From NCBI RefSeq assembly GCF_026210795.1, contig NC_089435.1, forward strand, positions 1,550,001 to 1,614,000: DNA of 64,000 nucleotides. Reading direction: 5' to 3'. The DNA is from Rhizophagus irregularis (lineage: Eukaryota). Position 1 is the first letter of the stretch. Every line of letters begins with the position of its first letter. Below the pieces are notes generated by a model, which had not been told where the DNA came from, searched no databases, and was given only the letters and a program-made list of their open reading frames with translations. Made by a program: the position numbers and the translations under genes. This document shows positions 8,979-55,089 of this stretch, one piece after another.

Positions 8979-10130
8979 ATCATAGAAAGTCGAAAGCGTT
9001 CTATATAAACAAGTCTTTATATATTAATTGATATTTATATTTGTTAATAAAAAGAAATTATTTTTTGCGGCAAATTTGGTTGTAACTTGTAAGACATAGT
9101 AATGTCCTTTATTTCGAATAAAAATGATTCATTAATAAATTCTCTTAATATTTATCAAGAAAAATTTTTATAGATACTAACGCGTCATGATAATATAATA
9201 CATTTTTAAATAATTTTATGATTGTTGAATGTAGTTTAATTTCTCTACTAATATCTTATCCATTGCCAATTACAATTATTAATTTAAATTAATAGAGATC
9301 TTGAAATAATTAATAATTGCAAAATATATACAATTTATATTTTGTAAGTTTGTATAATAAAAAGAATACAAAAAGGAAAAAAGAAATTTAATAATTTAAT
9401 ACATGACAAAAAAACATTTGTTTTTTTAAACCTAATCTTAACAAAAAATAAAATGGAATGCAGTGAAATAAAACGAAATGAAATAAATGAAATAAAATAA
9501 ATGAATTAAATAAGTCATTACTTGAGAGTCATGCACTAGAAAATAAAAGAACGATGCCAAAACGTGGCAAGGGTTATTAATAATACAATATGTTGGGAAA
9601 TAAATTAAACTTGAAATAAAAAACTTTTGAATTCTTTTATATTAAAAATTACAATTATAATTGAAATTATTTAAATTATTTGTATAACTGATAAATTCTA
9701 TTGCCTTTTTATTATATAATTTTTATCAAAATAAAGAAAAAATTGCGATTTTACCAACGTCAATTATGTAACTTGCAAATCAATCCGGATACTATTTTTT
9801 CTGGGAGACGCTAGGGTTGTTAAATCGTAATTTAAATCATGTACTAAGATTATGAATGGGAAATGATTTTTCCAAGGGGTTAGGATAATGAAATTTTATG
9901 CAAATCTGCGGCAATCTCCAACAAGAAAAAAAAATTAGAAAGTAGAAACATATATCAATATATTTTCCTTTTTTTGGTAATGAGGCGACTGAGGCGTCAA
10001 ATACTACGCCTAAAGGTTACAAATTTATGTGTGCACAACATGAAGTTTGATCAACAATTTGCATTTTATTAATTTATTACGGTTTGAATGAACGAACTTA
10101 AAATAATTCTTTCTTTTCCCTTAATTTATT

Positions 10131-12448
10131 ATGTCCACTCTTCGATATGAATTAGTTAATGCAACATATCATAGGGCAATTTTTTTGACTGATACTAGTA
10201 TTTACAATGATATACACAAACAATTTGAATTTCAAAAACAAACAGTCCTTGCTGATAAAATTCTTACAAATGATGAAAAAATTTATGGAATAAGAAAATT
10301 AACTAAAACTTATGATCGAAATAAAGTTATTTTAAATTCAGGAACAAGAAGAATTTGTGAAAATTGTAACCAAGAATGTTTAGCCACATTATATTGTGAA
10401 TATTGTGTCCGAAATTATTTAAAAGAAAATTTTTCAAACTGGACATCTGGGAATGATGATATTGACAATTTAATACAGAAATGTCAAATGGAATCACTTA
10501 ATCCACAAAGGATAGTTGAATGGATTCCATATAACAATTTGAAAAATATTAATTATTTAACAAAAGGTGGATTCTCTGAAATCTATACAGCGGGTTGGAT
10601 TAACGGATATTATGAAGAATGGGATTCTGAAAAAAAAACAATTAAAAGAGTTAAAAGACTTGGAATACAAAACTTTGTAGGATATGTAGCACTTAAAAAA
10701 TTAGAAAATGTTGAAAGTGCAAATCAAAGTTGGTTTGAAGAGGTTTGTATAATTTTATTTGAAATTTATTTATAAAATCCTGTTTTTTTGTATTAACAAT
10801 AGCATTGTTGTCATTTAGGCTAAATCACATTTAACTATAAGTAATAAATGGTCAGGTGTTGCTCGATGTTTTGGTTTAACACAAAATCCATCAAATGGAT
10901 ATTATATGCTTGTAATGTGTAAAATGAATATAGATTTAAGAAAATATTTACAACAAAATCATAATCAACTTACATGGAAAGATAGAATGAAAATTATTAA
11001 TGAAATAACTCTTGCGCTTTATTATATTCATAAAGAGAAAGCAATTCATAGAGATTTGCATTCTGGAAATATATTGTATTCACAATTTAATGATAAGTGG
11101 TATATTAGTGATCTTGGATTTTGTGGACCTGCTGATAAATCTTCAACAAGTATATATGGAAATCTTCCTTACATAGCACCCGAAGTTATTGTTGGAAGAG
11201 AATATACTTTTGCATCTGATATTTATAGTATTGCAATTCTTATGTGGGAAATTTCATCTGGACAAACACCATTTATAAATTATGAACATGAAAATGATAT
11301 TGTAATGAATATTATTAACGGTATAAGGGCAAAAATAGTGCCAGGAACTCCATTAGAATATAAAAATTTAATGAAAGAATGTTGGGATGCTGATCCATTA
11401 AAAAGACCTGACGCTGATGCACTTGAATCCAAAATAAACCGAATTAATTTATATTATCAAAATATGTCAGATGAAGTATTCAAATCAGAAATGGATAATT
11501 TAGAAATGAATAAAGTAGAAGAAAATTATACAAGTAGCAGGTTATTTACAAGTAAAATTCACAACTTTGGAAATCTACCTGAACCAAGAAATGCAACAGA
11601 AGGTATAAGCGTATAATATTTATTAATGAATGTATTTATTTTAAAATACATTATTATTAATGTTATCTCTTATTATAATAGAAGAACAAGAAGGTATAAC
11701 CATATAAATAATAATTTCTACTATTTTATTTGGTTACTAAAATAATTCACTTTATTTTGCTACTAATAGCGTTTCATAGTAAATTGTATGATTTTAACAT
11801 TCCTAACAATAGTAAGTATTTATTAATATTACGGCATTAAATTACCATATAATAATGTTTAATTTAATAATTGTCATTTATTTCAGTTAACGATTTTAAT
11901 AAATCAAATAAGCAGAATAGTAGTAACAAATCATCAAAAATAGTTACCATTTTTAGAGGTAATGAATCTTAATTATTGCCAAATCAAGATTGAATTTTAT
12001 AATTTTTATATTAAATCAATATCATAAATTTTAGATAGTAATAAAAAATTATCTAAATTATTTAAAAAGTTGCAAATAAATTCAAATGGTAAGAATAGTA
12101 ATAAATTACTAACAAATTAAACTCATTATTATATCAATTTCATTTATTTATTAAACGCGACTTTTATTTAAATTTAGATGATGAAAAAGAAATAACTCAA
12201 CAACGAATAAAAGGGAAAAATATTAATGTTGATGGTAGGTGAAAATTTTACGTAATAACAAATAATCCTTATACTATTTTAAGTATGTTTATTTTCTTAT
12301 AGATGATGACGAAATATATAATAATCCAAATTTTCATTCAAAAGAACAAGATGAACTGGAAATTCCCGATGGTAAGTTCTTAAATAAATAAGGTTTCTTT
12401 TTAAAGCAACTTAATTAATTTAATTTTTTATCTTTAGATGGATTTTAA
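10131..12448 (+). CDS. Tyrosine-kinase-like protein kinase with N-terminal Cys-rich (CxxC..CxxC) region; multi-exon
   Basis: Exons 10131-10742 and 10819-11602, a 12-nt exon 11682-11693, further short exons, stop TAA 12446-12448. Motifs KGGFSEIY, VALK, HRDLHSGN, DLG, APE. Confidence 0.9.
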
Positions 12449-19376: not shown

Positions 19377-22300
19377 TTAGTTTTCATCTGTTTCAATATC
19401 TAGATAATTAATTAAATAAAATTAATTACAAATAAACAATTTGCAAATTACTTTGTTTTGTGTAATATAATACATACCTAATGAATTAATATCATTACTA
19501 ATTCTACAATTGTCCAAACATTCACTTTCAAGATATTTATTCAATTTTTTACTAGTAAAATCAAGTACACGACTTGTATAACATGCTTGTGGATGAGATT
19601 CTGTAACAAGGTTGTTATTCCCAATTGGTGTATTTATAAATTCCATAACATACCTTTTTAATTCTTTACTAATATCTTCAATTTCCTTTTCATAAGGAAG
19701 AATAATCCACTCTTCAATAATATTTAAAACTTCTTTAGAAGATGGCCTTTTTAATGGATCTTCATCCCAACATTTTTTCATCAAATCTACATAACATTGT
19801 GGAGTATTTTTAATGATTTTAGGACGTCCACCTCTACAAATACTTAAACTAAGTTGAAAATCATGTGCTTCATCATTAAATGGTGGCACTCCAGATGTAA
19901 ATTCCCACATAATCATAGAAAAACTATAAATATCACTAGCTGGAGTAAAATGCTTGCCTCTTAAAATTTCAGGTGCCATAAATGGTATAACACCATAAAT
20001 TTCATATTTTTTCAAAAATGATTTTATAGGTTGACATAATCCTAAATCACTAATATAGACTTTAACATTTTCATAGTTTTCACTTTCTTCATTTTTTTCA
20101 CTTTCCTTATTTTCTTCACTTTCATTTTCCTTATTTTCTCCATTTTCTTCATCTTTATGATTTAAAATGTTGCCATCATGAAAATCACAATGAATAAGCT
20201 TTTGTTTATGTATCTCATTAAGCCCAGAAATAATTCTATGTAACATATGTAATTTTTGCTTCCAATCATTTTTGATTATTTTTGTCAAATTTCCTCTAAA
20301 ATTACCTTTGTTTGCATAATCCATTACTACCATATAACGCAAAGTATCTGGGGATCTTGTAAATCCATAAAAATTAATAATATCATATGAATTTAAACAT
20401 CTTTCATGATTTTTCCACTAGTAAAACATAATAATAATATATTAGTATAAATAAATTATAATTTAGTAAAGTTAAAAAAGAAGAAATAAATAATATATTA
20501 TCATACTTCATTTAAAAATTGGTTTGAATTTTCATTTAAATTATTGTGACATTTGAGAACTACTTCTTTATTTCCATTATTGTTTAACCAAGTAGCTTTG
20601 TATATAATGCTAAATCCTCCTTTATCAAGATATACAATATTTTTAAACTCATTATAAGGAATCCATTTTAAATTTTTTTCAAGAATAAATTTGTCTATAT
20701 TTTCATCTCCACATCTCCTAAATCTATAAATTTAAATAATTAGTAAAATTATATTAAAGTTTATATAGTTTATATTAAAATTTACACTAAAATTTAAAAT
20801 TAGAATTAACACTTACCCTAAAATTTAAATAAGAATTTAATATAATATAAATCTTAGTTTTTGTACTAAAATACATATATAATAAACTATAATTTACAAC
20901 TTACCGACTAAAGTAACAGATATTTTTTTAAAATAAGAATTCAGTTGATTAAAACTATAACTGAAATTTAACATTACTATATAACTTATAACTTACTTGC
21001 TATATTAATAAATAATGTTTTAAATAAAAATTTAGTTTAAAATTATATAAAAATATTATATAAACATGTAATAGTAAAATTAAATAAATAACTTACTCTC
21101 TATATTATTAAATAATTATTTTTAAAAAGGAAATTAAGTTAGTCTGAATTATAAGAAATATCATATAAATATATAAGTAATAAAATAAATAACTTACTCT
21201 CTATATTATTAAATAATTTTTTTCAAACAAAAAATTTTAGTTAGTCTGAAAATATTTTATAATAATCAAATTAAATAAATAACTTACTCTCTATATTATT
21301 AAATAATTTTTTTAAACAAAAAATTTAGTTAGTCTGAAAATATTATATAATAATCAAATTAAATAAATAACTTACTCTCTATATTATTAAATAATTTTTT
21401 TTAAATAAGGAATTTAGTTAGTTTAAATTATAAGAAAATATAATATAAATACGTAATAATAAAATTAAACAAATGACTTACTTCCTGTATTATTAATATT
21501 TTTTTTTTTTTTTTAAACAAGGAATTTATTAGTTTAAATTATATGCCATTATTATATAAATATATAACAATAAAATTAAATAAATAACTCACTCCCTATA
21601 TTATTAAATAATTTTTTGAATGAAAAAGTAAATTAGTTTAGATTGTATGAAAATTTACGTAAATATATATAATAATAGAATTAGTTAAATAACTTATTAC
21701 TTCCTATAACTTACCACCTATATTATTAAATAATTTTAATAAAAAATTTAGTTAGTTAAATTATATGTAATAGTTATGCAGCCTAATTATTTAATAAACT
21801 GCAAGCATAATGATACAGTTATTGAAAGGGGAGTAACACCCTGTAGGGCGTATCTAATAACTGTAACATATTGTATAAATATGTAATAGAACTAAATAAA
21901 TAACTTACAAACTATATTAATAAATAATGTTTTATATAAAGAACGTTAGTTTAAATTATATACAGTAAAATATTTTGTAAATATATAATAATATAAATAA
22001 ATAACTTACGCCCTATATAATTAAATATTTTTTTTTAATTATTTTAATTAGCAATTTACTTAGTATAAATTATATGTAAAATTATATAAAAATAACTTGC
22101 ATGCTATATTATTAAATAAATTTTTAAGTAAGAAAATTATATGTAAATATTATATAAATATGTAAAGTAATAGAATATAATAAATAACTTACAAGCTATA
22201 TTATATTATTAAATATATTTTTGTTTAAATAAAGAATTTAATTAGTTTAAATTATATTTAAATATTTAAATAAATATGCAATAACGAAATTAAATAGTAA

Positions 22301-25300
22301 ATAACTTACTTCCTATATTATCAAATAATTTTTAGGTAAAGAAATTATTTAGTTTAAATCATATGAAATATTATAGAAGTATAATTAAATAAATAACATA
22401 CCCCCTATATCATTAAATAAAGAATGTAAGTATTATGTAAATAGGTAATAATAAAATCGAATAAATAACTTACATGCTATATTATTAAAATAAAGGATTT
22501 AGGTTAATTATATATAAATTATATAAATATTATAAATGTATAATAATAAATTAAATAAATAACTTACTCCCTATATTAATAAGTAATAAAGAATTTAGTT
22601 ATTTTATTTTATATAAATATTATGTAAATATGTAATAATAGAATCAAACAAATAACTTACAAGCTATATTATTAAATATTTTTTTTTTTTAAGAATAAAG
22701 AATTTAGTTAGTTTAAATTATATATATATAAATATGTAATAATAGAACTAAATAAATAACTTACGAACTATGTTATAAATAATTTTTTAAATAAAGAATA
22801 TTTTAGTTTATATCATATATAATAATTGAATGAAATAACAACTTCAATTACCCCCTATATTATTAAGCAGTATTTTTAAATAAAGAATTTAGTTAATTTA
22901 AATTTTATGCAAATATTATATCAATATATAATAATAGAAATAAATAAAAACTTACAAACTATATTGTTAAATAATTTTTAAATAAAGGAATTTAGTTACT
23001 GATTTAAATTATATATAAATATTGTATCATAAAATTAAATCAATAATTTACCTACTATGTAATTAAATAATTTTTACAAAAGAAATTTAGTTAATTTAAA
23101 TTATGTGTAAAATAATATAAATGAAAAACTTATAACTTACATTCTAAAATAAATTGCCAAATAATTTTAAATAAAGAATTTAGTTAATTAAATTATGTAT
23201 ATATTATATAAATATGTAATAATAGAGTTAAATAGATAACTTACCCCCTATACAATTGAATAATATTATTTTAAATAAAGAATATAAATATTATATAAAT
23301 ATGTAATAAACTAATAATAGAATTAAATAAATACTTACAAACTATGATATTGTTAAAAAAATTTAATTAGTTTAAATTATACAGTAAATACTAGTGTATA
23401 AATATGTAATAATAATGATAGAATTAAACAATACTTACAAACTATATTATTAAGGAATTTTTCAAAAAATTTAGTTAGCTTATCATGTTATATATAAATA
23501 TTATATATTAGGATAAAATAACAACTTACAAGCTATATTATTATTTTTAAATAAAGAATTGAATCAGTTTAAATTAAATGTAAAAATTATATAAATAGTA
23601 AATAACTTACCCACTATATCATTAATAATATTTTAAAAGAAGAATATGAGTATTATATAGAGATATAGTAATAGAATCAAATAAATAGCTTACTTACTAT
23701 ATTATTAAATAATTTTTTAAATAAAGAATTTAGTTAGTTTGATTATGTATAAATATTTAATAATATAAATAAATAAATAACTTACAGGCTATATTATTAA
23801 ATAATTTGGTTTAAATAAAAAATATGTTAGTTTCAAACTTTAAATTATGTATAAATATATATATAATATACATATAATATGTTATTACTTACCCACTATA
23901 TTATTGAATAATATTTTAAAGAGTTTAATTAAATTATATAAAAATTGTAAATTTGTAATCACCATAAATATAAATAAATAACTTACAAACTATAATTTTT
24001 TAATAAAATATTTAGTTAGTTTAAATTTATATAAGCATCATACAAATATGCAATAATAAAATTAAATAAATAACTTACTTCCTATATTTTGAATGATTTT
24101 TGAAAAAAAGAATTTTGTTTAAATTATATGTAAATGTTTGGTATTAGGACATTTCACTAAAAGCCATTTTGTCAAAAAATAGTCTCTAGCCTGAGTTTTT
24201 CATAGCATAATATTAATTATTGACCCTATTTTTTGGTGAAACATCCTGGAAATAGCTTTTGACAAAATATCCCATAACCATAAATGTTATATAAATAATA
24301 ATAAATTTAATTATTAACCTACCCACTATATTATTATAAATAATTATAATAATTTTTTAAAGATTTCAGTTTAAATTATATGCAAATATTATGTAAATAC
24401 ATAAATTATAAAATTAAATAAATAACTTACAAACTGTATTATTAAATAATTTTTTCAATTAAAATATTAATTAGTTAAATTATATTTAAATATATATTAA
24501 ATAATTAAATTATAGTAACTTACCAACTAAGAGTTTAAATAAATAATATAATTAATTAAATTATATGCAAATACTATTATATAATAATAGAATTAAATAA
24601 TTTGACTTACCCACTATATTATTATTAAATAGTTTTTTATAGTTAATATAAATTGTATATAAATATATATTAATAGAATCAAATATATAACTTACATGCT
24701 ATATATTAAATAAAAAATAATTGAGTTAATATAAATTATAAAATTATATATAAATAATTAGAATATAATGCAATAATAAAGTTAAATAACTTACATACTG
24801 TATTATTAAATAATTTTTTAAATAAAGAATTTAATTAGTTTCAATTATATATAAATATTATACAAATATAATAATAGAATTAAATAGGCACTTACAAACT
24901 ACATAATTAAAGAATTAATTAGTTTAGATTGTATATAAATATTATATAAATATGTAAATATTAACTTACAAGCTATTATTAAATAATTTTTAAATAAAAT
25001 ATTTAGTATAATTATATGTAAATATTATATAAATAATAGAATTAAATAAATATCTTACAAACTATATTATTAAATAATTGTTTATAAAAATAAAAATTTA
25101 GTTAGTTTAAATTATAAATAAATATATAATAATATAATTGAATAATAACTTACTCCCTATATTATTAACCAATTTTAAATGTAGTTAATTTAAATTATAT
25201 GTAAATATCATGCAAGTTTATAATGACAGAATTAAATAAATTACTTACAAACTATATTTTAACCAATTTTTTAGACAAAGAATTTAGTTAATTTGAACAT

Positions 25301-28300
25301 GATATAAATAAATAATAGAATTAAATAAATGACTTACATGCTATTATAAAATAATTTTTAAATGAAGATTTTAATTAGTTTTAATTATATTTATCATATA
25401 AAAATGTAATAATATAATTAATAAGTAAATGATTTACTTTCTATAATTTTTAAATAAAAAAATTTAATTAGTATTATAAATATGTAATAATAGAATTAAT
25501 AGAATTAAATAAATGACTTACTTTCTATATTATTACATAATTTTAAATAAAGAATTTAATTAGTTTTAAATAATAAATAAATATATAATAACAGGATTAA
25601 ATAAATAACTTGTAAGTTATAACTTACCAGCTAAAATAAATTATAAAATAATTTTTTAAATAAAAATTTGGTTAATTTAAATTATATGTAAATATTATAT
25701 AAACATATAATAATAGAATTAAATAACTTACGAACTATATTATTTTATAAATAAAGAATTTAGTTAATCAAATTATATATAAAATTATTAATAGAATTAA
25801 ATAAATAACTTACAAACTATATTATTATGTAATTTTTTAAATAAGTACTTAGTTAAATTGCATGCAAATAATATAATAATAGAATTAAATAAATAATTTA
25901 TAACTAACCACCTAAAAGATAAAAAACTTAGTTAAGTCAAATTATATATGTGAGTATATAATAATAGAATTAAATAAATAACTTACAAGCTATATTATTA
26001 AATAATTTTTTAAATAAGGAATTAAATTAGTTTAAATTATATAAATATATAATAGGATTGAATAATAACTTACAAGCTATATTATTAAATAAAAAATTTA
26101 TTTAGTATAAGTTATATGTAAATATGATGTAAGTAATGAAATTAAATGACTTACAAGCTATATTAGTAAATAGTTTTTTAAATAAAAAATTCAGTTGATT
26201 CAAATTATATGTAAAAATTATATAATAGTAGAATTAAATAAATAACTTACCCTCTATATTATAAATAAGTTTAAATAAAAAATTTAGTTAACTTAAATAT
26301 GTGAATATAATTATAGTACTAGTAAATATTAAAATATTAACTTACTTTCTATATTATTAGTTAATTTCCAATAAAGAATTTAATTAGTTTAAATTATACA
26401 TAAATATTATATAAATATATAATGATAAATAATTAACTCACTCCCTATATTGTTAAGTAGTAAAAAATTTAGTTAGTTTAAAATATATGCAAATATTATA
26501 CAAATATGTAATACCAGAATTAAACCAATAACTTACAATCTATATTATTTAATTTTTAAACAATGATTCAATTAGTTTAAATCATATGTAAATATGTAAT
26601 AGTAATAGAATTAAATAATAACTTACAAACTATTATATTATTAAATAATTTTTTAATTAAGAATTTAATTAGTTTAGATTGAATTTGTAATATATGTAAT
26701 AATAGAATTAAAAAAAAATAATTTACCTCCTATATTATTAAATAATTTTTTAAATAAAAAATTTAGTTAGTTTGAATGAGTAATAGTACAAATATATAAA
26801 ATAACTTACTCCCTATATTATTGAAAAATTTAGTTAATTTGAATTATATAAATATTATATAATAATATTATTATATAAATTAATAATAGAACCAAATAAC
26901 TTACTTTCTATATTATTGAATAAAAAATTTAATTAATTTATATTATATATACTTATATTATGAAAACAATAAATAACTTATAACTTACTGACTAAAAGAA
27001 ATTACCAAATAATTTTTTTAATAAAGAGAATTTAGTTAGTTTAAATAATAACATATAAGTATTATATAAATATGTAATAATAGAATTATTCAAACAACTT
27101 ACCCCCTATATTATTAAATAATTTTAAAATAAAGTTAATAAATATTATATAATAAATATGTAATAGTAAAATTAAATAAATAACTTACGAGCTATCATAT
27201 TATCAAACAATTTTTTGAATTTAATTAGTTTAAATTAAATATAAATATGTAATAATAGGATTAAATAAATAACTTACAATCTATATTATTATTATTAAAT
27301 AATTTTTAAGTAAATAATTTAATTATATTAATATTATATGTAAAAATGTAATAATAATATTAAATAACTTACAATCTATATTATTAGTAATTGTTTAAGT
27401 AAAGAATTTAGTTAATTTAAATTCGATGTAAATATTATGTAATATATAATATTATGATAAATAAATAACTTATAACTTACCAGCTAAAAAATTTCAAATA
27501 AAGAATACTCAATTTAGTTAATGTACATGTAAGTATTATATAAATATATAATAATAGACTTAAATCGATAACTTACAATCTATATTATTAAACGAATTTA
27601 ATTAGTTTAAATTATATATAAATAATATTGACTATGTAATATTAGAATTAAATAAAATGTTAACTTACGAGCTATATTATTAAATAATTTTTAATTTTTA
27701 AGCAAAGAATTTAGTTAATGTAATTATATGTGAACATAATAAAAGTATATAATAAAAGAATTAAATAAAGCAATTTCCATTTATACACGGGATGTTCAAG
27801 CAAAAAGGGGACGTCTAAAGCGGAGCAGTTTTGGCCGGCATTACGGCATTAAGGAATTTACTATGATCACGTGATTCTACTCCGCTTTAGACGCCCCCAA
27901 AAAAAGTACGTAAATTTTTATGCCGATCACTTAATGTTGGCTGAAAAAAATAAAAAATTTTTTGTTAAATAAGTCTAAAAATGATATATTTTCAGAGATA
28001 CACTTACCGTCCATTTTTTTAAAGTTATATTTATTTTTGTTATACTGACACGTGATATGTGCTTGAAGTACCCGTGTATATTAAAATTTTCTTAAATAAA
28101 TATCTTACGAACTATATTATTAAATGATTTTTAAAATAAAAACTTAGTTAGTTTAAATTATATGTGAATATTATAATGTATAATAAATAAATGACTTACT
28201 TTCTATGTTATTAATAAATGATTTTTAAGCAAACAATTTAGTTAGTTTAAATACATGCAAATATTATATAATTATATAACAATTAAATAAATTACCCCCT

Positions 28301-29216
28301 ATATTATTATAATTATTTTAAATAAAAATTTCAGTTAACTTAAATTTATAAGTATTATATAAATATGTAATGGAAAATAACTTACTCTCTGCATTGTTAA
28401 GGAATTTTTTAAATAAAGAATTTAATTAGTCTAAATTATATATAAATATTATATAAATATGTAATAATAGATTAAATAAATAATTTACCGCCTATATTAA
28501 TAGATAATTTTAAATAATAAATTTAATTAGTTTAGATTATATAAAATATCATGAAATAAATTAGCTCATACTTACGAACTAAAATAAATCATCAATAATT
28601 TATTAAGAAAAGTATTTTAGTTAGTTAATTTATATTACCGTATATGCAAATGCATGTAATAATAGAATTTAATAAATAACTTAGAACTTACCGACTAAAA
28701 AAAATTGCCAAATAATTTTTTAAAATAAAGAATTTATTTTTGTTTAAATTACTGTACATAAGTAAGATAACATACGACTTACACCCTGTAATATTATTAA
28801 TTGTTAATTAGTTAAATATAAATATAATACAGATATATACTATAAATAAATAATATATATCTTACAATCTAATAATTTAAATAAAGAATTTATAATCAGC
28901 GTTAGTCGAGTTTTGTAAATTATCAAACAATAAATATAATATTATTAAGTAATGTAACTTGCCATCTGGAATATAATTAATTATTAAGTAGTTATTTAAA
29001 CAAAGAACTTCAGTTAGTTATTTGAAAATAATGTGAAATAAAGTACTAAAAGTTTAACTTACTAACTATAGTATTGTCGATCATTAAATGAATTATTTAG
29101 TTATATAGAATATGAAAAAATAAGTAATTTCATTATTATTCAATTTTAAGATAATCTATTGACTTACGAGCCAAATATTTAATGTGCCTTTTATCTTTAT
29201 CATCACTGTCAGCCAT
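19377..29216 (-). CDS. Predicted membrane-anchored tyrosine-kinase-like kinase (490 aa, 86 exons) with microexon-encoded N-terminus
   Basis: Exon 1 29216-29168 (MADSDDKDKRHIKYLA+C); 81 3-nt exons (29065 down to 20905); 1-nt exon 20817; exons 20723-20507, 20417-19478, 19399-19377. Total 1473 nt = 491 codons with no internal stop. Kinase motifs DKGGFSIIY, VVLK, HCDFHDGN, DLG, APE. The kinase part is high confidence; the microexon chain is my manual reading. Confidence 0.85.
24139..24280. mobile_element. Small MITE inside an intron of the microexon array
   Basis: Imperfect TIR TGGTATTAGGACATTT / AAATATCCCATAACCA; 8-bp TSD TAAATGTT (24131-24138, 24281-24288). Confidence 0.7.
27786..28076. mobile_element. 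Tc1/mariner-type MITE in an array intron, with a nested GGGCGTCTAAAG-TIR mini-element (about 27807-27898)
   Basis: TIR CACGGGATGTTCAAGCA / TGCTTGAAGTACCCGTG flanked by TA. Inner inverted repeat CGTCTAAAGCGGAG / CTCCGCTTTAGACG. Confidence 0.8.
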
Positions 29217-31820: not shown

Positions 31821-31963
31821 TTTTTTGATTTTACAGTATGTAACGTTCATTAGGTTATACGACTAACTTGATAAGTCAAGGGCTATGATGTTATGACTTC
31901 CGATTTTTTTCCTTTTGTTTTCTTTCTTTTTTTTTTGTTTCAAGATCTTAATAAGGTTCAAGC

Positions 31964-34089
31964 ATGACTGATATTCGTAAAGCTAATGCTGCAATTAAAA
32001 GAGCATATACCTTAATAGATTTTAGTATTTACAATGATGTACATAAACAATATGAATTTAAAAGACAAGCAATTCTTGTTGATGATTCACTTATAGAAAA
32101 TGAAAAATCTGAAGCAATAAGAATTTTGACTGCAAATTATGATGAAAGCAAAATTATTTATAATGAAGGAATAAAAAGAATTTGTAAAAATTGTAACAAA
32201 GAATGTTTGGCCACATTATATTGTGAATATTGCGTTCGAAATTATTTAATAGCAAATTTTTCAAATTGGACATCTGGAAATGATAATATTGATAATTTAA
32301 TACAAGATAGTCAGATGAAAGCAATAAGCCCAAATCTAATACCAGAATGGATCCCATACAATAATCTTCAAAATATTGAATATCTAACAAAAGGTGGATG
32401 CTCTGAAATTTATATAGCAGAATGGGTTAATGGAAGTTATGATGAATGGGATTTTAAAGAACAACGATTAAAAAGATATGGTGAACATTTAGTAGTACTT
32501 AAAAGACTAGAAAATATCGAAAATGCAAATCAAAGTTGGTTTGAAGAGGTTTGTAATATAGAAATATTTTAAAAAGTAATAACTGAACTTTGTGCCTAAA
32601 ATTTTAATATAATTTTTGTAGGCTAAATCACATTTAACTATAAGCAATAGATGTCCAGAAATTGTACAATGCTATGGATTAACACAAGATCCATCAAATG
32701 GAAGTTATATGCTTGTAATGAATAAGACAGATACAGATTTAAGAAAATATTTACAACAAAATCATAATCAACTTGCATGGAAGGAAAGAATTCAAATTGT
32801 TGCTGATATAATTCTAGCACTTTTACGAGTTCATAATGAGAATGCAATTCATAGAGATTTGCACTCCGGGAATATATTATTCATGGTATTTGATAGTAGA
32901 TCTTTTATTAGTGATCTTGGATTTTGTGGACCTGCAAATAAACCGTTAAAAAGTATATATGGAAATCTTCCTTATATAGCGCCTGAGGTTATTATTGGAA
33001 AAGAACAGACTTTTAAATCTGATATTTATAGTATTGCAATGCTTATGTGGGAAATTTCATCTGGACGACCACCATTTATTAATTATGAACATAATTACGA
33101 TCTTGCTATGAATATTGTTAATGGTATAAGACCAAAAATTATACCAGGAACTCCTTTAGAATATAAAGATTTAATGATACAATGTTGGGATGCTGATCCA
33201 TCAAAAAGGCCTGATATTATAACACTTCGCAGTAAAATAAGAGAAATCAATTATTTTTATCAGAGTAAATCAAACCAGTCAGAAGAAAATAATGTAAGTA
33301 GCCTGGAAAATTATACAAGTACAAGCAAGCTTTATCAATTTGGAACTTTTCCTGAACCAAGAAATGCAACAGAAGGTAATATCCCAGTTTTTACATTTTG
33401 GTCAATTATTTGAAGAGTATTGTTATTAATAATATTATTTTAATTAAAATAATAGAAGAACTAGAAGGTAATAAATTATTTTAAATTTTCTTAATTTAAA
33501 TGATTGTGATAATTAATTATTTTTTGAACTCTTAGCATTTTACAGTAAACCTTTTAACTCCTATATTCCTGATAACAGTAAGTATTTTAGATTAATATTA
33601 AATCTATTAACTTATTTAATTTGATACTGTTAGTTGATGATTTTGATAAATTAAATAATGATCAGAATAGAACATCAAGGATGAATAGTATATTTAAAGC
33701 TAATTTGTTCAATATAAATTTTATTAACTTTAAGAAGTAGTCAAATCAATAAGTAATAATGTTTATTAAATTATTTAGTAAATAGTAATAGATTATTCAA
33801 AATATTTAAAAAGAATTTTCAAGATGGTATATTATAGAGAAGAAATAATGCAACAACAAAGAAAGAATATTTATATTAATAGATTATTTAATGTCATTTT
33901 AATGATTGTTTTTATTCATTAATTCTAATTTATTATAATGTAGATGAGGATGAAGTATACAATAATCCTAACCTTCATTCAGAAGATCAAGATAAATTGG
34001 AAATCTCTGATAGTAAGGGAATTTATTTTATACTAATGTTGAAACTTTAAATAGCTATTAACCTTATTTTTTTAATGTATTTAGATTAA
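31964..34089 (+). CDS. Tyrosine-kinase-like protein kinase, paralog of 10131-12448
   Basis: Same domain layout and intron positions (WFEE|AKSHL; PRNATE|EE.E). Motifs HRDLHSGN, DLG, APE. The 3' small exons are less certain because some donors are degenerate. Confidence 0.85.
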
Positions 34090-35186: not shown

Positions 35187-35657
35187 TTCTGGGTGCTACA
35201 GTATCAGATGGAACGTGATATTTGTATTACTTGTAAATATACGCCTCTTTCATCTCTTTTTTTAAGGGGGAGTATACCATGTAGATCATTTTCATAATAA
35301 ACTATTTGGAACGATCATTACAAGGTAATACAAGATAAACGTGACTATGAAAAAAAAATCAAAATACGCCAAACCGCTTTCATATTTTTTGTGTAAACTC
35401 TCCAGAATTCACGCTTCACATACCATAAAATAAAGTCAACATTATTTTACTAAATAATATTTTGACATATATATAAAGTTTTTAGCGAACTGCCAATTTT
35501 CAAGTAAGAGCTGCCAATTTTCTAGTTTGTTCTAAGTAACCTTTATTAAAACTTTTATATCTTTGTTTAAACGACTTGTAAAAAGTGTTTTTATATTTGT
35601 TTAAAGCAAAAAACTTGATATTATGCTAACTTCTGAGTTTTTAAATTTTTTTAGAAC

Positions 35658-38600
35658 ATGTCATGGTTTGAGGTACTAAGAAAGACTAATGAAAAATATA
35701 TTAGTATTCAACGTACTGATAGAACGTGGCTTGTACGAGATGATACGAAATCACTTCAGATATTATCTTGTCACCACCACACTATATCCAAAAAAAATAA
35801 TGCATATCAACTTTGCGCCATCACATCAATGAAACCTGATCCTGGGCAAAAAAAATGTTGGATCCCCCTTGTTCCTGGCTATTGCATTATGTCTAAAGTT
35901 GGATTGCATTTTATGCGACTTTCCATTACCGAAAATAACAATAATTTACAATTTGAATGGATTGATTATGGTAATGATAGTACATTTATGGGAAATCCAG
36001 TTGCTAGTGGAGTAGATAGTGAATTTTTTCAATCTTTACGGAAATATGCTGAAACGCAAAGTGTTATTAAAGGCAAAATATCAATTCCAAATGTTCTTGG
36101 ATTAAACATTTATGAAAATGCAATATATCTTCGTAGTATAATTTCTCATTTACATGATGGAATCTTTTTATCATTAAAAGAAGCCTATAAAGCTAGTACC
36201 AAAATGAATAAATTTGTAAAATCCTTGAATAAACGTGCTCTTGAATTGGATGAAGAATTTTCTAATGGTAATGATCGTCCTAATAAAAAAGTCAAAAGTG
36301 GGTTGATCTTTTCGCCTTTTGGACACAAACTTACGCCTCAACAAAGTCAAGTACTTGTATTTAATTTTCACTCTATTCAAAGCAAATTTTATCAGGCTAA
36401 TAAACGTTTGAAGCGGGCACAGAGTAACATTGAAAAATTGAAAACATTGCCACCCCCATCTTGTAAACAAAAAGAAATTGAAGCACAAAAAAAATTGATT
36501 GATGAAAAAATTAAGCAATTAAAGGATGAGGAAAACCTTGGCAGTAGCATTATTTGCAGTACTGATTCATTTCTCTCTTTGATTTTGACACAGCAATGCT
36601 CTTGTGGAAACAATGATATTTTACAGAAAAAATGCAAAATATCTTCGGGTGGATTATCAGTTAAAGTAGTAATTAAATGTAAAAAATGCAAAGAAACTTT
36701 ATCTTTTCAAAATGAACCTCAAGATATGAATTATACAAAAGCATTTGCTGCTGCTACATTATGTGGTGGATTGAATCGTCAAGAATTTCAAAATTCAATG
36801 TTAACTCTTGGTATTACCAAATTACCTAGTAAGGCCATTTATCATAGATATCAAAAATCAATAAGCGAAGATATTGAAAATATTGCTTTAGAAAATGCTA
36901 AAAAAGCATTATATGCGTCAATTGAGGATGCTAAAAAAAATGGAAAAAATGCTTTAACAATTGGATTCGATGCATCATGGTCACATGTACGCAATGCAGC
37001 ACAAGCTAGTGGTGAATTCATATATCATGGAATTCCTGAAGGAAGATATTATTTTACTTTATTTAATTACATTTATTTAATAATTTAATTGACATTCTTA
37101 TTATATCCTACTAATAGGATATACTCGCAAACCAGTTGTTGGATTTTTTGTTGTAGAAAAAAGTCATGTTAAAAAAGATAAAAATGGAAACAAAACAATA
37201 ATGCATCAAGGAAACCATGAAGCTAGTTCTAAACAAATGGAACATGCAGTGCTTATTGGAATATTGGAGAAAGTGGTTCCTGTTTTAGAAGAAACTGGTA
37301 TGCTTTTAGATATTGTAGTAGATGGAGATTTTGATAGTAATAAAACTTTGCATGGAGTAAAATGTGTAAATCAAATATTTTCCGATCTTAAGCATTTAAC
37401 ATGCAATATCCGAAAAAAATTAAATGGTAATTATAATTAATTTATTATGCATATATTTCAAAAATAATTAATTTTACTTTTTTATAATAGCTAAAAAATG
37501 GGAGCACTATTCTCGTTATGAAGACGTAATATTACAATATTATAAAAAATGTATATTTGCTGTAGCTGCCCGAAAAGCATCTAATAATGAAGATTAACCA
37601 CCTACGACTGAATTGGTAAAACATTTGCAAATACATGGATTAACCAAACATTTATGTGATGATCATTCGGAATGTTGGCCAGAGGTATGTTGGATGACAC
37701 AAAATCCCGAATTAGTCCTTTCTGAACCAAATCTCTTGAATTGTACATCTGAAGAATGAGAAAAATTTTCTGCAATGCTTGGAGAAATTTTTCAATTAAA
37801 TATTGGACAAAGTCTTATAACAGATGCTAGGACATCTCAAAATGAAGCATTCAATAGACAAAAATTAAGTTTTGTTTCAAAATTAATCGATTATTGGAAA
37901 ACATATTCTGTACGATATACATGCTGCCCAAATTATTTTGGGATGCCATAATTATAATTTGGGATGCCATAATTCATTCGGTTTATATATAATTTACTAT
38001 GTAAAGTGCCAAAATAATTTGGGATGCCATAATTGAATTTGGGATTTTACTTATAATTACGGCAGTCCAAAATAATTTGGGTGGCATGTATACTGTACGA
38101 TATGCTTTAGCAGTTATTCATAATAATTCAGGCCTATTATTAATGTTACAAAATATACGTGCACAAAAGGGACTAACTGTATTTTCTGAAATTGATATAC
38201 TAAATATTGAGCATATTTCTGGTGGGCGTGAATCACAAAGGCAAAGAAATCAACAAGATCTACAAATAAAAAGTGCGGCTAAAGTAGCAAAAATTGCACA
38301 ACAGAAAAAAAATTTGGATACGTTTGACTTTGATCAGGTACGTATATAATTGAATTGACATTATTTCTAGTAGATTTAGAAGTTTAATAATAATATTTTT
38401 TTTAGAGTTTAGTTCCATATGGACAAAAAACACGTATTGCATTAGAATCTAAAACATTTTGTTCTTCTTTTACGGGTCTAATTTGTGAGTTACTTGACAT
38501 TTCAAACAAATGTATCAGTTGTCAATCTTTTCCTAAAGAGTTCCCTAATGGCTATTGCAAGATATGTAATTTTTGGAATTATTTGGGATTTACTCAAAGA

Positions 38601-40579
38601 ATACCCGAAATTAATGTTCAAATGGCAAATAATGAGCCAAATCAGCTATTAATTTCTAATAAAATTCCTGAATTGAATCAAATACTAAAACAAGTGTTTG
38701 GATTTTCAAGTTTTCGTGAAGGACAATATGAAGCTATATGCTCATTCTTAGGAGATAAAGATACTTTAGTTATATTGCGAACTGGAGGTGGTAAAACTTT
38801 ATGTTTTGCAATGGCTGTGCTTGCTTCTTCTCGTTTAACTGTTGTTTTTACTCCCTTAAAAGCATTAATTGACGATCATGTGGTAATATACATTTGATTT
38901 ATAACTTTTATTTTTGGTATTTACCAATATCTTCTATTCACAGAATAATCTTGTTCATATGGGAATTCCTGCTGCAGGACTTTATACATCTACAGGACAA
39001 TCTTTTGAATATTAGGAGCGCGTTTTTTCTGAACTATCTTTAGGAATTTTACCTATTTTATTTATAACACCAGAGAAATTGGAAAAAAATAGATCATTTT
39101 ATCGGCTACTTCAAAAAATATATAGAACACAAGGGATTCAATTCGTCATTGACGAAGCTCATTGTATACTTGATTATAATAATTTTAGGTAAGTCTGTAA
39201 GTTTTTTAGAAAATACTTATTGTTAGACAAAAAAAAAAAATAATATAATTTGAATATTAGGGATTCTTGGACACATTTAGGGAATCTTAAAAGAAATTTT
39301 CCAATGTCTCCAATCATGTTATTGACTGCTACGTGCACATCATCTGACGTTGAAGATATGTGACAAAATTTGAATATTTTGCCAGATAATTTTACTATAA
39401 TTCGTGGTTTATCATTAGCACGGCAAGAAATTGAAATTCAAATAGTAGCAAAATCTTCACGACAAAACTTATATTCTAGGATTCAAAATAATTTAGTTGG
39501 ATTAACTGGAAGATGCATTATTTATTGTTCAGGACCAAATTCTTGCCAAGAAATATTTAACAATTTGCATGGAAATCTTACATTTTCTCTTGGCTTGTAC
39601 CATGGTGAATTGGATGGAGAGCAACGTAAAATAGCAATCAAAAATTGGCAAATGGGTAAGATTCAAATTATGATAGCAACAAATAGTTTTGGTATGGGGA
39701 TCAATGCACCAGACGTATATCTAATAATTCATACAACTATACCTTTATCAATGAGTATGTATGCTTTTAATGCTTTTTGTATAATACATATATATTTATT
39801 TTATTTCTTTAATTTAGCAAATTTTATACAAGAAATCGGAAGAGCAGGGCGTGATGGAACGCCTTCAAAAAGTATTATATTTTATTCAAGAAATGATATA
39901 CGGACTTTGTTTTTAATAATTACACGAAAAGAAGAAAGGTATAAATATTATTTTCTATATATGTATGTAATTAATTTTATAAAATCTGACAATGTATTAG
40001 TTTACCACAAGAAAATGATGTAGAAAAAAGAGTAAGGCATTACGAAGGCCAGCAAAAATTTTTACAAATAGCACATTTTTGCGAAACAAAATATATTTGT
40101 CGACATTCATTGATTGCACAACATCTTTCGTGGTCAGATAATATTTCAAATAAAACATGCGGAGTATGTGATAATTGTATATCAAGTTTAGGTGATAAGC
40201 CTGTATGGAATGATTTTTCAGCTGATGTAATTAGGTTGTTAAAAATTGCAAAAGAAATTTTGATCTCTGGAAAAATACATGAAATGATATCGTTAGATAT
40301 TGCAGCAGTTTTTTGTAAATTAAAAAGAGCAAATGAATTGGGACTTTCAGAATTACCAGTTTATAATGAGCCTTTTGAACGTAAATTGAAAATAAAGATA
40401 ATACATTATTTGTCATAGACGAACTTTGCGCTAAAGGCTTTTTGGTTTTGAACTTTCAACTTCGAAAAACAGCAGCCTTAACTGGAAACTTTTCCTTCAA
40501 GTCAGTAATTATTGGACTAGGAGATAATGCCGAGGAAGAAGCAAAACACATTACATGGAAATATTGTTTTAAACAATAA
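35658..40579 (+). pseudogene. DDE transposase followed by RecQ helicase; intron-containing, disrupted
   Basis: Transposase motifs: Cys clusters, IGFDASWSH, VVDGDFDS, DLKH, SQNEAFN. RecQ motifs: FGFSSFREGQ, TGGGKT, TPLKAL, ITPEKL, IDEAHC, LLTAT, ATNSFGMGIN, QEIGRAGRDG, CGVCDNC. Several in-frame stops and a MITE insertion. Confidence 0.85.
37920..38088. mobile_element. Tc1/mariner-type MITE inserted in the Kolobok transposase
   Basis: TIR CATGCTGCCCAAATTATTTTGG / CCAAAATAATTTGGGTGGCATG with TA flanks. Confidence 0.8.
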
Positions 40580-43702: not shown

Positions 43703-45042
43703 ATTGTAATTGCTTATTTTTTCGTCAGTTTTTATTACCTTGTTGGCATATCTTTCACAAACATGTATATGGTGTTTTGGAACAATTTCTGGACACAGTA
43801 TCTGGGCATTTACTGGACAATTATTTAGACAAATTTTCCAGACAATTTTTGGACAATTTCTGGACACTTATTTTTATAGGGTGTAACACCTTGTAACTCC
43901 TTGCTTTTTCAAAGATTATTAAAAAATTTTTTATTATAATAATTTATCCATGAGCAAATACTTATTATTGTCAAAACTGTTAGATGCTCTTGCAGAATTT
44001 ATTTTGAAGAAAATAATGAAAAGAATTCAGAGTTTAAGGTAATTAATTTTAATAGGAAAATTAGAAAATTCATTAACAACCTAATATAGTGATCATGAGA
44101 AAAAATCCATCTTCAATAGGCAAATTTTGCTATATAACTCTAGGAATTTAAGAATCACATAATAATCTTGATCTATTTATCAATAATTCACTATCAGCCT
44201 ATTAGTTACAAAATTGAAAGGCTAAACTTGTTTAAATGTTTTGACATTTATTATTAAAAGCTTGTACTTAAACAGTGTTAAAACTTACATAGTTTTATGA
44301 ATTTATACTATACTAGTTTTAATATTGCTTTATATTTCTTTTGCAATAAAATTATAACTGTTAATTTATTTTTCTATTCCAGATCTTTATAATTAAAAAC
44401 TAAAACTAAATGTATTTTTTCAATAGATTAGTAATCATATAACTAAATTTTTGACTTTGATTGGTCAAATAGTTATGTCAAAATTTAGATGTTTAGACAA
44501 CTGTCAAAATTTTTAGGCTTTAGGTGGTTTTAATTTAGATTTTTAATACTACTAGCCAAATATAGCTTTACCAAGTAACTATATATTAACCTATTTGTTT
44601 ACAATAAATATAGTTTATCAATTTTAACTAAAATGGAAATAGAAATAAAGCTGTTTTAAAGGATGGCATCGATGATGCAAATTCAATAAATGAATTTTAT
44701 GCTTATATTTTAAGAATCCATAGTCTATGCAATATAATTAACATACTATAATAAAGGACGGTCAGATAAAAAATTGTGTTACCTTAAAAATGTATTTTTT
44801 CATATTGTTTACCGAATTGCTGGGTCATTTTGTGTAATAATGATTTCCTTTTTCAAAGAAAAATCTTTTTTTATGGCGATTTGTATCACTTAAACGACCA
44901 GCCATTTTTATATTATTATATATTATATATTATATATATTAAGCTACAGATTCTTCCTGCTACAGCGTAAAAACATATAAGTAAAAAATATAGGAAAGAG
45001 AAATTCAAAAAATACATTGTATTTTACACTTTATCTACCATT

Positions 45043-47115
45043 ATGTCTACCTCACAGTCAACGGGTATGACACGTATGACTCGTAGTGTGACTCGTAAAG
45101 GAACGCTACAGCCAGGAGAACAAGTTATTGATATTTCTACAGGGTCAACTTCAACTGCCTTTCAGGATATTGACCCCTTTAAAAAGCCATATAATCCCCC
45201 ACCGGCTACTAATAAAGATGATGAAGGGTTTGAAACAGTTCAATCAAAAAATAAAAAAGCAAAAAAAGAGGATACTGTGACACAAAAACAAAAAGAAGTC
45301 ATGAAGGAGGTCGTCCAAGCAACATTGGGAAGAAAACAGTCTCAACAGAGCGAAACTGCGGCTGCAAATGAGTCACGTGACAATAATCATCCCATTCAGC
45401 CGAATTTAACCAAAAATATCACCCCAATGGATCTTGACCAAAACAATGACGATCATAATGCAGGAGATGAAACCAATGAAATTCCTGATGATGAAGATGA
45501 TATTATTGATATAGCAATTATGGCTGAAAAGCCACAATTTAAAGTTTATTTTGATTTGGCACAAATTCCTGGAAAAAGCCATATTGGAAAAGTAAACCTC
45601 GTGAAAAAACTGCTTGCTCAACATCATATTGCATGTTTTCCAGGTAGAATTGATGCCAAGAATATTGAAATAGATGGAACTATCCAAAAACAGCATTATT
45701 ATGTTTTTAAATGTGCTAATGAAACAGCATTTGAGAAAATTTTACGTGAACCCATTCCAACTAAAATTAAAATTAAACAACAAGATGGTAAAATTGTGGA
45801 ACAAGATTTGAATGTTACGTTTAACAAAATAGAAAAAAAAGAAATTCCGGCTGAAACTCAACAGAATATTGATGAACACATGATTTTTGTAAACAAGATT
45901 CCTGCAGAATTGAGGAATTATCAGATTAAAGGTGTTTTTGGTACATATGGAAATATAGTAAACTTCAAAACTTTTATGAGAGGGCAGTATCAAAATGCTA
46001 TTATCACATTTGATGACAAATCCGCAGTCCAACCATTTTACTATACTTGGGGCATCTTTATTAACCAACATTTGGTTAGGGTTAGACCCAAAGTTATGTC
46101 AGAAGATAAACTACATGAAAGAACAGCATATTACATTAAACTTGCAGGTTTACCACTAAATACATCAGCATTTGATTTAAGAGGATTTATGGAACGGTAT
46201 AATGTTAAATATCTTGACATTCCAAGAAATTCTCGCTTTAATTATCCATTACGCTATTGTTTTGTTTATTTTCAGAACGAAGAAGATTTTCAAATCGCAA
46301 CCAAACAAGCATTCTGTTTTAAAGAACACCAATTATATTGGACTGATGTAGATATGAAAACTTGCCACAGGTGTGGCAGTCCTGAACATCTTGCTATGCA
46401 CTGTGATCATGAAGACAATCGTCCAAGATACAAAAACAGAAAAGAAGTACTTAAAGGTTTTAGACAAGCTAGACAAGAAAGAAATAAAAAATATGGAAGC
46501 TATGCACAAGCAGCTCAACAAGGACGTAATAGAAGACAAAGTTTTAATTCACGAAGACCTTGGAATAGAGCGAATTTATCACATGATAATAAATCACATG
46601 ACCAAAATAATGTATTTTCTATTGACAAACCAAAACACCAGAGGCAAATGTCGATGACTAAGAATACAATTCAGGATCGTAATGTAGCCTTTACCATTAC
46701 TAAAGCAATGGAAAAATTAGACCAACTTTGTAAGAATTTTACAGTTTTACAAAATGAACAACGTTCAATTAGTAATGAACTTAAAAGTATTAAAGTTAAA
46801 CAAAATACCAAAGATACAACTAAACCAAATACAACAGTTAATAAAGCAGTGGGATCTAGTACTAAAGGAGTTACCAGAAATAATAACAAACGCATTCTCT
46901 TAGAAGAATCTTCAGATGATTCAACTCATGAATTATCAGACCTTGAAGAACGCTTTAAACAATCTGAACAAAAATCTCAAAATATGGCTACTGAACTTAC
47001 AGATCTCAAAGGTACTATGCAAAAATTATTACAATTATTCCAATCATCAAATGATAATCATAATGTTGAGGGGGACAACACTTATGATGAAGAAATTATT
47101 GATATTAGTCAATAA
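45043..47115 (+). CDS. LINE ORF1 (RRM-like domains, CCHC zinc knuckle, coiled coil)
   Basis: 690 aa. IFVNKIP..FGTYGNI and IKLAGLP..YCFVYF are RRM-like; CHRCGSPEHLAMHC is a CCHC knuckle. Confidence 0.9.
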   Translation: MSTSQSTGMTRMTRSVTRKGTLQPGEQVIDISTGSTSTAFQDIDPFKKPYNPPPATNKDDEGFETVQSKNKKAKKEDTVTQKQKEVMKEVVQATLGRKQSQQSETAAANESRDNNHPIQPNLTKNITPMDLDQNNDDHNAGDETNEIPDDEDDIIDIAIMAEKPQFKVYFDLAQIPGKSHIGKVNLVKKLLAQHHIACFPGRIDAKNIEIDGTIQKQHYYVFKCANETAFEKILREPIPTKIKIKQQDGKIVEQDLNVTFNKIEKKEIPAETQQNIDEHMIFVNKIPAELRNYQIKGVFGTYGNIVNFKTFMRGQYQNAIITFDDKSAVQPFYYTWGIFINQHLVRVRPKVMSEDKLHERTAYYIKLAGLPLNTSAFDLRGFMERYNVKYLDIPRNSRFNYPLRYCFVYFQNEEDFQIATKQAFCFKEHQLYWTDVDMKTCHRCGSPEHLAMHCDHEDNRPRYKNRKEVLKGFRQARQERNKKYGSYAQAAQQGRNRRQSFNSRRPWNRANLSHDNKSHDQNNVFSIDKPKHQRQMSMTKNTIQDRNVAFTITKAMEKLDQLCKNFTVLQNEQRSISNELKSIKVKQNTKDTTKPNTTVNKAVGSSTKGVTRNNNKRILLEESSDDSTHELSDLEERFKQSEQKSQNMATELTDLKGTMQKLLQLFQSSNDNHNVEGDNTYDEEIIDISQ

Positions 47116-47140
47116 TTTCATATATTTTTCATTTTAATTT

Positions 47141-54581: not shown

Positions 54582-55089
54582 TTAATTATAACGATAATGT
54601 AATGACGACGATAATGAAAATTTACCATTTGATTATTGTTTATTTTTTTGTTTAAAATAAAAAAAAAATGTATCTATATTTAAATAAGTAATAATACAAA
54701 CAAATTGTTTATTTACATAATATTAAAATTTGTCATCCGGTTGTTGATCATTTTTGGCTAACAAAAAAATTATTCAGTTTTCACATGATTTGCTAAAAAT
54801 TTTATCCCATAATTATTAAGCAAGAAAGATCATTCTATATAAGTGCAATATCACCCTATGGGTGGGTGGGTGGCGCGTCACGTTATTGTTATGACTTGAA
54901 ATGATTGACATGTCATGATAGGTTAACGTTAACTTAACGTTAACATAAGATTAGTTTTTGAGTGATTTCCATTTTAAGATGCTGATCCCCCATCTTTGGT
55001 ATTGATTTGCTGATTATATAAATACATTTCAAATCAAGCTTTTCTATTTTAGTACGATCGGCAACCAACAAATCTTTTAGTGTTTTAAT

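What the first reader, a model, noticed from the sequence alone, without database searches (positions are those of the whole stretch)
21097..25251. The microexon-spelled peptide is a coherent membrane segment followed by RKKKK
Seen after virtual splicing: FWISFLSLVVLGILALMAFFW is 21 uncharged, mostly hydrophobic residues from 21 separate exons. It is followed by Trp-rich ELVWVPWTWGTSWLCG and then RKKKK just before the kinase. Established: a hydrophobic helix with interfacial Trp, a juxtamembrane Cys and a basic cluster fits the positive-inside rule. This ordered chemistry is independent evidence that the triplets are selected as protein. Inference: a membrane-anchored or receptor-like kinase without a signal peptide. 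The upstream side is also basic (RVKRRVYWKK), so a re-entrant hairpin topology is possible.
Basis: partly seen in the sequence, partly recalled or inferred. Interest (0 to 1): 0.85.

Follow-up and report, generated by a model that had tools for sequence, protein, structure and literature searches.

The report
Kinase anchor spelled in one-codon exons
A kinase gene of a root-symbiotic fungus carries 81 three-base exon slots in a row that, if spliced in order as the sequence statistics strongly suggest, spell the front of the protein, including a predicted membrane-spanning helix; related kinase genes carry the same arrays with different letters, so this is likely a way to vary kinase front ends that gene annotation has missed.

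Summary
Observation confirmed. The locus is a Rhizophagus-type kinase gene on the minus strand. It has exon 1, then 81 AG-NNN-GT slots about 95 nt apart, a 1-nt slot and three ordinary exons; the virtual CDS gives 490 aa. The in-order phase-1 reading has 0 stops in 80 junctions (6 expected; shuffle P 1.6e-4). Caveats: one Lys of RKKKK comes from a recent unit duplication; topology is open; 'receptor-like' is untested. The array is a family trait: 20 of 33 related metagenome loci with at least 500 nt upstream carry it, with 1 stop in 193 junctions (11.4 expected). The helix is not a family trait, because the other arrays read as hydrophilic D/N/Y/W-rich peptides. RNA data show that the kinase exons are spliced; no spliced microexon junction was seen. 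Codon-sized exons are known from Tuber nank genes, and this scan noted short arrays earlier in kinase-HET genes of other fungi. My searches found no report of them in arbuscular mycorrhizal kinases.

The parts
29168..29216 (-). Exon 1 coding part (ATG at 29216; 49 nt; phase-1 donor)
   Evidence: its N-terminus resembles those of public paralog models P0060 and P0076
20905..29065 (-). Array of 81 three-base exon slots (AG-NNN-GT, phase 1), median spacing 94.5 nt; slots 37% GC, introns 12% GC; residues 17-97 of the model
23245..25340 (-). Slots encoding the 21-residue hydrophobic stretch (residues 54-74), predicted membrane helix
21593..23143 (-). Slots encoding the Trp-rich segment (residues 75-90), possible re-entrant or interfacial segment
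   Evidence: KD 0.69; interface-scale sum -7.7; scale recalled
21097..21484 (-). Slots encoding RKKKK (residues 91-95); two intervening introns are 97% identical
20817..20817 (-). One-base slot (AG-G-GTAAGT) that converts phase 1 to the phase 2 of the next exon; without it the frame stops within about 10 codons
   Evidence: 7 related loci have a 1- or 4-nt last slot before a phase-2 acceptor
20507..20723 (-). Exon with the kinase N-lobe start (Gly-rich loop, VVLK)
   Evidence: 100% identical to P0001 over 72 aa; a spliced contig with 0 differences ends at its acceptor
19478..20417 (-). Main kinase exon (PF07714/PF00069; HCD, DLG and APE motifs; acidic insert)
   Evidence: joint 20417/20507 seen in 4 of 4 runs
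19377..19399 (-). Last coding exon with stop
   Evidence: gives the same C-terminus as P0001
27782..28080 (.). MITE-like insert with 21-nt terminal inverted repeats inside one array intron

Best explanation
This kinase gene carries 81 three-base slots and one one-base slot between splice signals, which are likely spliced in order as exons to spell the first hundred residues, including a predicted membrane helix that would anchor the kinase on the cytosolic side of a membrane. Shown: slot anatomy, the stop-free phase-1 reading, frame linkage to the kinase, clustering of hydrophobic codons, splicing of the kinase exons, and the same arrays in related genes. Inferred: splicing of each slot; membrane insertion (hairpin or re-entrant with both ends cytosolic about 50%, single pass with the N-terminus outside about 40%); and evolution of the arrays by gain, loss and exchange of whole intron-plus-codon units, so that each paralog gets its own N-terminal peptide (localisation or sensing part) on a conserved kinase.
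For: Window: 0 stops in 80 adjacent junctions v 6.0 expected, P 1.6e-4, while lags 2-8 give 4-11 stops as expected. Slots 95 nt apart can only be coupled in this way through splicing and translation (inference). Related loci: 1 stop in 193 junctions v 11.4 expected, none depleted at lags 2-4; phase 2 gives 39 stops in 197. 271 slots on the sense strand in 51,409 upstream bases v 4 antisense and 9 in 106,785 downstream bases. In 34 of 40 loci with a rule-based call, the last slot and the kinase acceptor are in frame with a phase-1 array: 27 with a 3-nt slot and phase-1 acceptor, 7 with a 1- or 4-nt slot and phase-2 acceptor. Contig X3 record 14 is spliced, has 0 differences over 20507-20724 and leaves the genome there with 62 unaligned letters; that end fits a G joined to 20723, as the model predicts, and not the C of exon 1 or the T of the P0001 junction. 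Slots differ at 80 of 150 bases between close paralogs v 308 of 3228 in flanks.
Against: No read or contig was seen that spans slot junctions; the 62 loose letters were not displayed, and the G argument rests on one base in one contig from a run only guessed to be RNA. No public protein among 291 fetched shows the spliced N-terminus, and the model for this locus (P0001) reads through intron instead. No TM predictor or structure was run; the hydropathy scales were recalled. 0 of the 9 longest related arrays (8-30 slots) has a hydrophobic stretch, and 2 of the 9 show a stop under relaxed slot calling. 6 of 40 loci fail the frame rule. The related loci share ancestry, so their P values are overstated. 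Slot divergence may partly reflect unit mis-register, and flanks were filtered to 15% or less difference. Slots that are themselves stops are mildly depleted in related loci (4 v 9.7, P 0.035), which a pure phase-1 model does not predict.
Confidence: 0.72

Rival explanations
1. The slots are real exons but are used as cassettes, as reported for Tuber nank genes. The gene would make a population of isoforms, and the full membrane-anchored form would be only one of them; skipping all 81 slots gives an in-frame soluble kinase.
For: All 3-nt slots are phase 1-1, so any skip keeps the frame; exon 1 + 1-nt slot + kinase exon is open. Precedent: alternative splicing of codon-sized exons in Tuber (passages in PMC4986451 and PMC10197012).
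Against: Junctions made by skipping one slot are not depleted of stops: 4 of 79 v 6.0 in the window and 11 of 150 v 8.9 in related loci. Selection therefore acts on the in-order reading. This does not exclude some skipping.
Confidence: 0.15
2. The array is a non-coding satellite inside one long intron, or a row of recursive-splicing points. The real mRNA would join exon 1, or a P0001-type first exon, to the kinase.
For: The units are repeats about 73% alike. The public model ignores them. No spliced slot junction was seen.
Against: Stop avoidance is specific to adjacent slots and to phase 1 in the window and in 43 other chains. A frame-fixing 1- or 4-nt slot appears where the kinase exon needs it. 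Slot length is held at 3 (271 v at most 29 for other lengths).
Confidence: 0.06
3. The peptide is made, but the hydrophobic stretch is not a membrane anchor; it would be a buried, aggregating or partner-binding segment, one draw from a fast-varying array.
For: Related arrays are hydrophilic (183 junction codons: D 12.6%, N 10.4%, Y 9.3%, W 7.7%). Flanking charges do not fit a simple single pass with a cytosolic kinase.
Against: KD 2.36-2.49 over 19-21 residues and a summed insertion scale of -2.7 (scales recalled) are typical of membrane helices (own knowledge). 80 upstream residues are too few to bury it in a soluble fold (inference).
Confidence: 0.07

Closest known systems
Codon-sized microexons of Tuber melanosporum nank (NACHT-ankyrin) genes (Iotti et al. 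2012; original not held; seen only as passages in PMC4986451, PMC10197012 and PMC13449251)
   Same: Fungal expanded gene family with tens of 3-nt exons that vary part of a signalling protein.
   Different: Here the host is a PF07714 kinase in a Rhizophagus-type genome. The array has 81 slots plus a 1-nt slot, lies at the N-terminus and spells a predicted membrane helix. The statistics favour in-order use, whereas nank is described as alternatively spliced.
Schistosoma mansoni micro-exon genes (abstract and outline of PMC10526429)
   Same: A variable protein part is built from runs of very short exons.
   Different: MEG exons are 3-81 nt with introns up to 5 kb and encode secreted proteins. Here the exons are uniformly 3 nt, the introns about 90 nt, and the array is fused to a kinase.
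Expanded PF07714 kinase family of Rhizophagus irregularis (passages in PMC6123716, PMC10234402, PMC8647823)
   Same: The kinase exons match it: best hit P0001 at 91%, 100% over the N-lobe exon.
   Different: The passages read mention no microexons. Public models start in intron sequence or at a downstream Met. Other members, including two in this window, have a continuous Cys-motif N-terminal exon instead of an array.
Earlier notes of this scan on kinase-HET and HET genes with 4-7 one-codon exons (e1-7577901, e1-7124557, e1-9906124; unchecked AI notes)
   Same: One-codon exons next to a kinase or HET domain in fungi.
   Different: Those are other genomes with short arrays in a linker or before a HET domain. 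This array is more than ten times longer and has no HET domain.

Membership tests
Codon-sized microexon genes (nank type) | Run of many 3-nt exons with canonical splice sites | tested here: met
   81 slots; coding constraint
Codon-sized microexon genes (nank type) | Exons shown spliced in transcripts | tested here: inconclusive
   one search shows kinase splicing and a contig leaving at the acceptor; the loose letters were not shown
Codon-sized microexon genes (nank type) | Diversification by alternative splicing | tested here: inconclusive
   skip junctions are not depleted of stops; no isoform data
Codon-sized microexon genes (nank type) | NACHT-ankyrin architecture | tested here: not met
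   Pfam finds only kinase families in the large exon
Rhizophagus PF07714 kinase expansion | PF07714/PF00069 domain with close Rhizophagus relatives | tested here: met
Rhizophagus PF07714 kinase expansion | Catalytic motifs intact (Gly loop, Lys, HxD..N, DxG, APE) | tested here: met
   motif positions; activity not tested
Receptor-like kinase (single pass) | Hydrophobic helix upstream of the kinase | tested here: met
   hydropathy only; depends on the virtual splice
Receptor-like kinase (single pass) | Signal peptide and folded ectodomain | tested here: not met
   only 53 residues precede the helix, charged and net +4; the single hydrophobic peak is at 54-74
Receptor-like kinase (single pass) | N-out/C-in topology with basic residues right after the helix | tested here: inconclusive
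   +2 before, -1 after, +6 at 16-30 residues after
Receptor-like kinase (single pass) | Ligand-dependent activation | not testable with these tools
   needs experiment
Schistosome micro-exon genes | Secreted protein almost wholly from micro-exons with long introns | tested here: not met
   about 82 of 490 codons come from slots; median spacing 94.5 nt; kinase domain present

The most novel reading that the evidence does not exclude
Arbuscular mycorrhizal fungi run a codon-by-codon diversifier on a large part of their kinase family. Arrays of dozens of one-codon exons, closed by a 1- or 4-nt frame-setting exon where needed, let single residues be added, dropped or swapped by unit recombination. 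This writes a private N-terminal peptide for each kinase, and in this gene it has produced a membrane anchor from scratch, giving an immune-like or symbiosis sensor repertoire that current annotations miss or read in the wrong frame.
Probability: 0.4. Interest if true: 0.92.

Novelty: new variant of a known kind. Interest (0 to 1): 0.8.

Why it matters
If spliced as modelled, one gene removes 85 introns and joins 81 consecutive 3-nt exons and a 1-nt exon in order. That is an extreme test case for how a spliceosome defines exons. It would also mean that many members of the largest expanded gene family of the main plant symbiont have N-termini, some of them membrane anchors, that are absent or misread in public gene models. 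The open question of what these expanded kinases sense could then be tested on defined, variable N-terminal peptides.

Tried and rejected
No whole genome is held for this window, so strain comparison and dN/dS on the orthologous array could not be done. The run search listed no holder on record as RNA; this blank is not used as evidence. The array beyond 23100 and exon 1 were not covered by any read lay. Searches for a transcript-derived protein with the spliced N-terminus found none: best 120 of 1239; 12; 18; best 150 of 2021. Hydrophobic N-termini in public paralog models (P0004, P0048, P0060, P0117) were considered as support for a family-wide helix and rejected: their residue patterns resemble phase-0 and phase-2 readings of arrays, their DNA could not be fetched, and so the frame is unknown. 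Prokaryote genomes gave nothing. Viral contigs gave no kinase relative and 7 single, unclustered motif matches. General T-richness and local duplication were tested as causes of the helix and not supported. No structure or complex was predicted for the spliced model. Literature: 10 searches showed no paper on microexon arrays in Rhizophagus or Glomeromycotina kinases. The library lacks most subscription papers, I read only passages of six papers and one abstract, and I did not open any supplements, so a mention there is not excluded.
Full report
Setting. The window is AT-rich fungal DNA. The large minus-strand ORF at 19422-20417 is a PF07714/PF00069 kinase. Its named best hits are Rhizophagus proteins, led by P0001 (R. 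irregularis OCT59_027144, 91%; 100% over the preceding 72-aa exon). No whole genome is held.

Anatomy. Upstream of the kinase, from 29065 to 20905, lies a repeat of median period 94.5 nt in which each unit reads acceptor AG, three variable bases, donor GTAAGT. There are 81 such slots on the minus strand inside the array and 6 outside; other slot lengths give at most 7 inside. Slots are 37% GC and introns 12%. Exon 1 (ATG 29216) has 49 coding bases, which fixes phase 1: each codon takes its first base from one slot and two bases from the next. That reading is stop-free; the other offsets have 2 and 7 stops. A one-base slot at 20817 is needed to enter the 20723 exon in frame. Three longer gaps in the array hold inserts with inverted repeats; the clearest is 27782-28080. 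P0001 instead begins with 26 residues read through intron at 20974-20897.

The observation. The best 21-residue hydropathy of 2.36 is reached in 0.055% of exon-order shuffles, 0.19% of shuffles that keep identical runs together, and 0.06% of residue shuffles. A looser helix plus basic cluster occurs in 0.27% and 2.6%; the uncharged-run statistic is weaker, 1.8% and 5.7% (20,000 shuffles each). T is enriched in the stretch at the slot position that is codon position 2 (14/21 v 13/60), not at position 2 of the slot and only marginally at position 3. Introns in the stretch are no more alike than elsewhere. So neither T-richness nor local duplication explains it. The basic cluster is less independent: two of its introns are 97% identical. 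Flanking charge is +2 before the helix, -1 in the next 15 residues and +6 in the 15 after that. The kinase must face the cytosol (own knowledge), so either the Trp-rich segment turns the chain back (hairpin or re-entrant) or a single pass is set by the distant basic cluster. I could not separate these. The hydropathy scales were recalled, and no trained predictor was available.

Are the slots exons? In the window, adjacent slots form 0 stops in 80 junctions against 6.0 expected (P 1.6e-4 in 200,000 shuffles); slots 2-8 apart form 4-11. A scan of metagenome contigs with an alignment of the N-lobe exon returned the best 80 of 148 related loci; that they are Glomeromycotina is my inference from similarity. 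Of 63 loci with 250 nt or more upstream, 40 have at least two slots; of 33 with 500 nt or more, 20 have at least three. There are 271 sense slots upstream against 4 antisense and 9 downstream, and length 3 dominates. In 43 distinct chains, phase-1 junctions hold 1 stop in 193 (11.4 expected), with no depletion at lags 2-4; phase 2 holds 39 in 197. With a fixed rule, 34 of 40 non-duplicate loci link to the kinase in frame: 27 through a 3-nt slot and phase-1 acceptor, and 7 through a 1- or 4-nt slot and phase-2 acceptor as in the window. Six do not fit, at least one through a mis-picked overlapping slot. These loci are related, so the P values are overstated. Several array-free loci have a continuous Cys-motif N-terminal exon at the same place, as do the two other kinases of the window. 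The array therefore seems to replace that part (inference).

RNA. Laid on 19400-23100, 4 of 4 runs show the 89-nt intron 20418-20506 removed (14 reads in X23; contigs in X2, X3 and X4, which are only guessed to be RNA). X3 record 14 has no difference over 20507-20724 and then 62 letters that fit nowhere listed; these letters were not displayed. Ending at 20724 fits a G joined to the exon, as the one-base slot predicts, and not exon 1 (C) or the P0001 junction (T). This is one base in one contig. Splicing of the slots themselves remains unshown.

Is the helix general? No evidence that it is. The 183 junction codons of related arrays are rich in D, N, Y, W, E, K and R, and the 9 longest arrays have negative best hydropathy; 2 of them show a stop under relaxed calling. 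These 9 belong to the other subfamily and cover at most 30 slots next to the kinase, whereas the window's helix lies 24-44 slots upstream. Loci of the window's own subfamily had too little upstream DNA to test. Between close paralogs (41 tree edges, 3 identical pairs dropped, 50 slot pairs kept) slots differ at 80 of 150 bases and flanks at 308 of 3228. In L018/L026, two slots differ at 5 of 6 bases in a 97% identical alignment. Register shifts among similar units could produce this, which would itself be unit-level reshuffling.

Mechanism. Most likely the slots are spliced in order and give a kinase with a membrane-anchoring N-terminus (0.72). The arrays likely evolve by gain, loss and exchange of intron-plus-codon units, which always keeps the frame. 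Cassette-type skipping (0.15), a non-coding repeat (0.06) and a non-membrane hydrophobic segment (0.07) are the rivals.

Comparison. Codon-sized exons are known from Tuber nank genes. I saw this only as passages in PMC10197012, PMC4986451 and PMC13449251; the original is not held, and the lead came from earlier scan notes. Schistosome MEGs are a looser parallel (abstract). Keyword passages of three Rhizophagus genome papers describe the kinase expansion without microexons. Ten searches showed no report for Glomeromycotina; supplements were not opened. I class this as a new variant of a known kind: the exon type is known, while the length, the one-base closing exon, the spread through a kinase family and the membrane anchor were not found in print. 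Interest 0.8.

Noticed in passing
window 20974-20897 (minus): The first 26 residues of public model P0001 are an exact read-through of intron sequence across the last 3-nt slot, so the public model probably has a wrong N-terminus.
   Followed up: yes
proteins P0004, P0048, P0060, P0117: Public paralog models have low-complexity hydrophobic N-termini that look like arrays read in the wrong phase; these could be false membrane anchors in databases. Inference only.
   Followed up: partly
window 27782-28080, about 24145-24270, about 21780-21870: Three inserts with inverted repeats lie in array introns and leave the slots intact; the first has 21-nt terminal repeats and an inner 22-nt palindrome.
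   Followed up: partly
window 20055-20160: Acidic E/N/K-rich insert in the kinase between the catalytic loop and DLG; relatives in the RNA runs have shorter, variable versions (joints of 84-106 nt).
   Followed up: no
window 44971-52603 and 55022-56764: LINE-like element (RRM ORF1; endonuclease-RT ORF2) with a second, near-identical copy of the ORF2 3' part about 4 kb downstream.
   Followed up: no
window 10125-11616 and 31955-33413: Two other PF07714 kinases with an ordinary Cys-motif N-terminal exon and no array.
   Followed up: partly
window 35655-40418; 59843-60943: Mutator-like transposase next to a helicase-C ORF, and a DDE_3 transposase.
   Followed up: no
L018:1-560 and L026:80-640: Near-identical loci whose array units are strongly homogenised but carry different triplets, suggesting recent unit shuffling.
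   Followed up: partly
proteins P0220, P0167: Proteins with tandem repeats of the kinase N-lobe region whose models start with a strongly hydrophobic stretch (KD19 2.9 and 2.7); gene structure unknown.
   Followed up: no
window 57443-58632: Strongly skewed pyrimidine-rich tandem repeat giving long ORFs in several frames.
   Followed up: no
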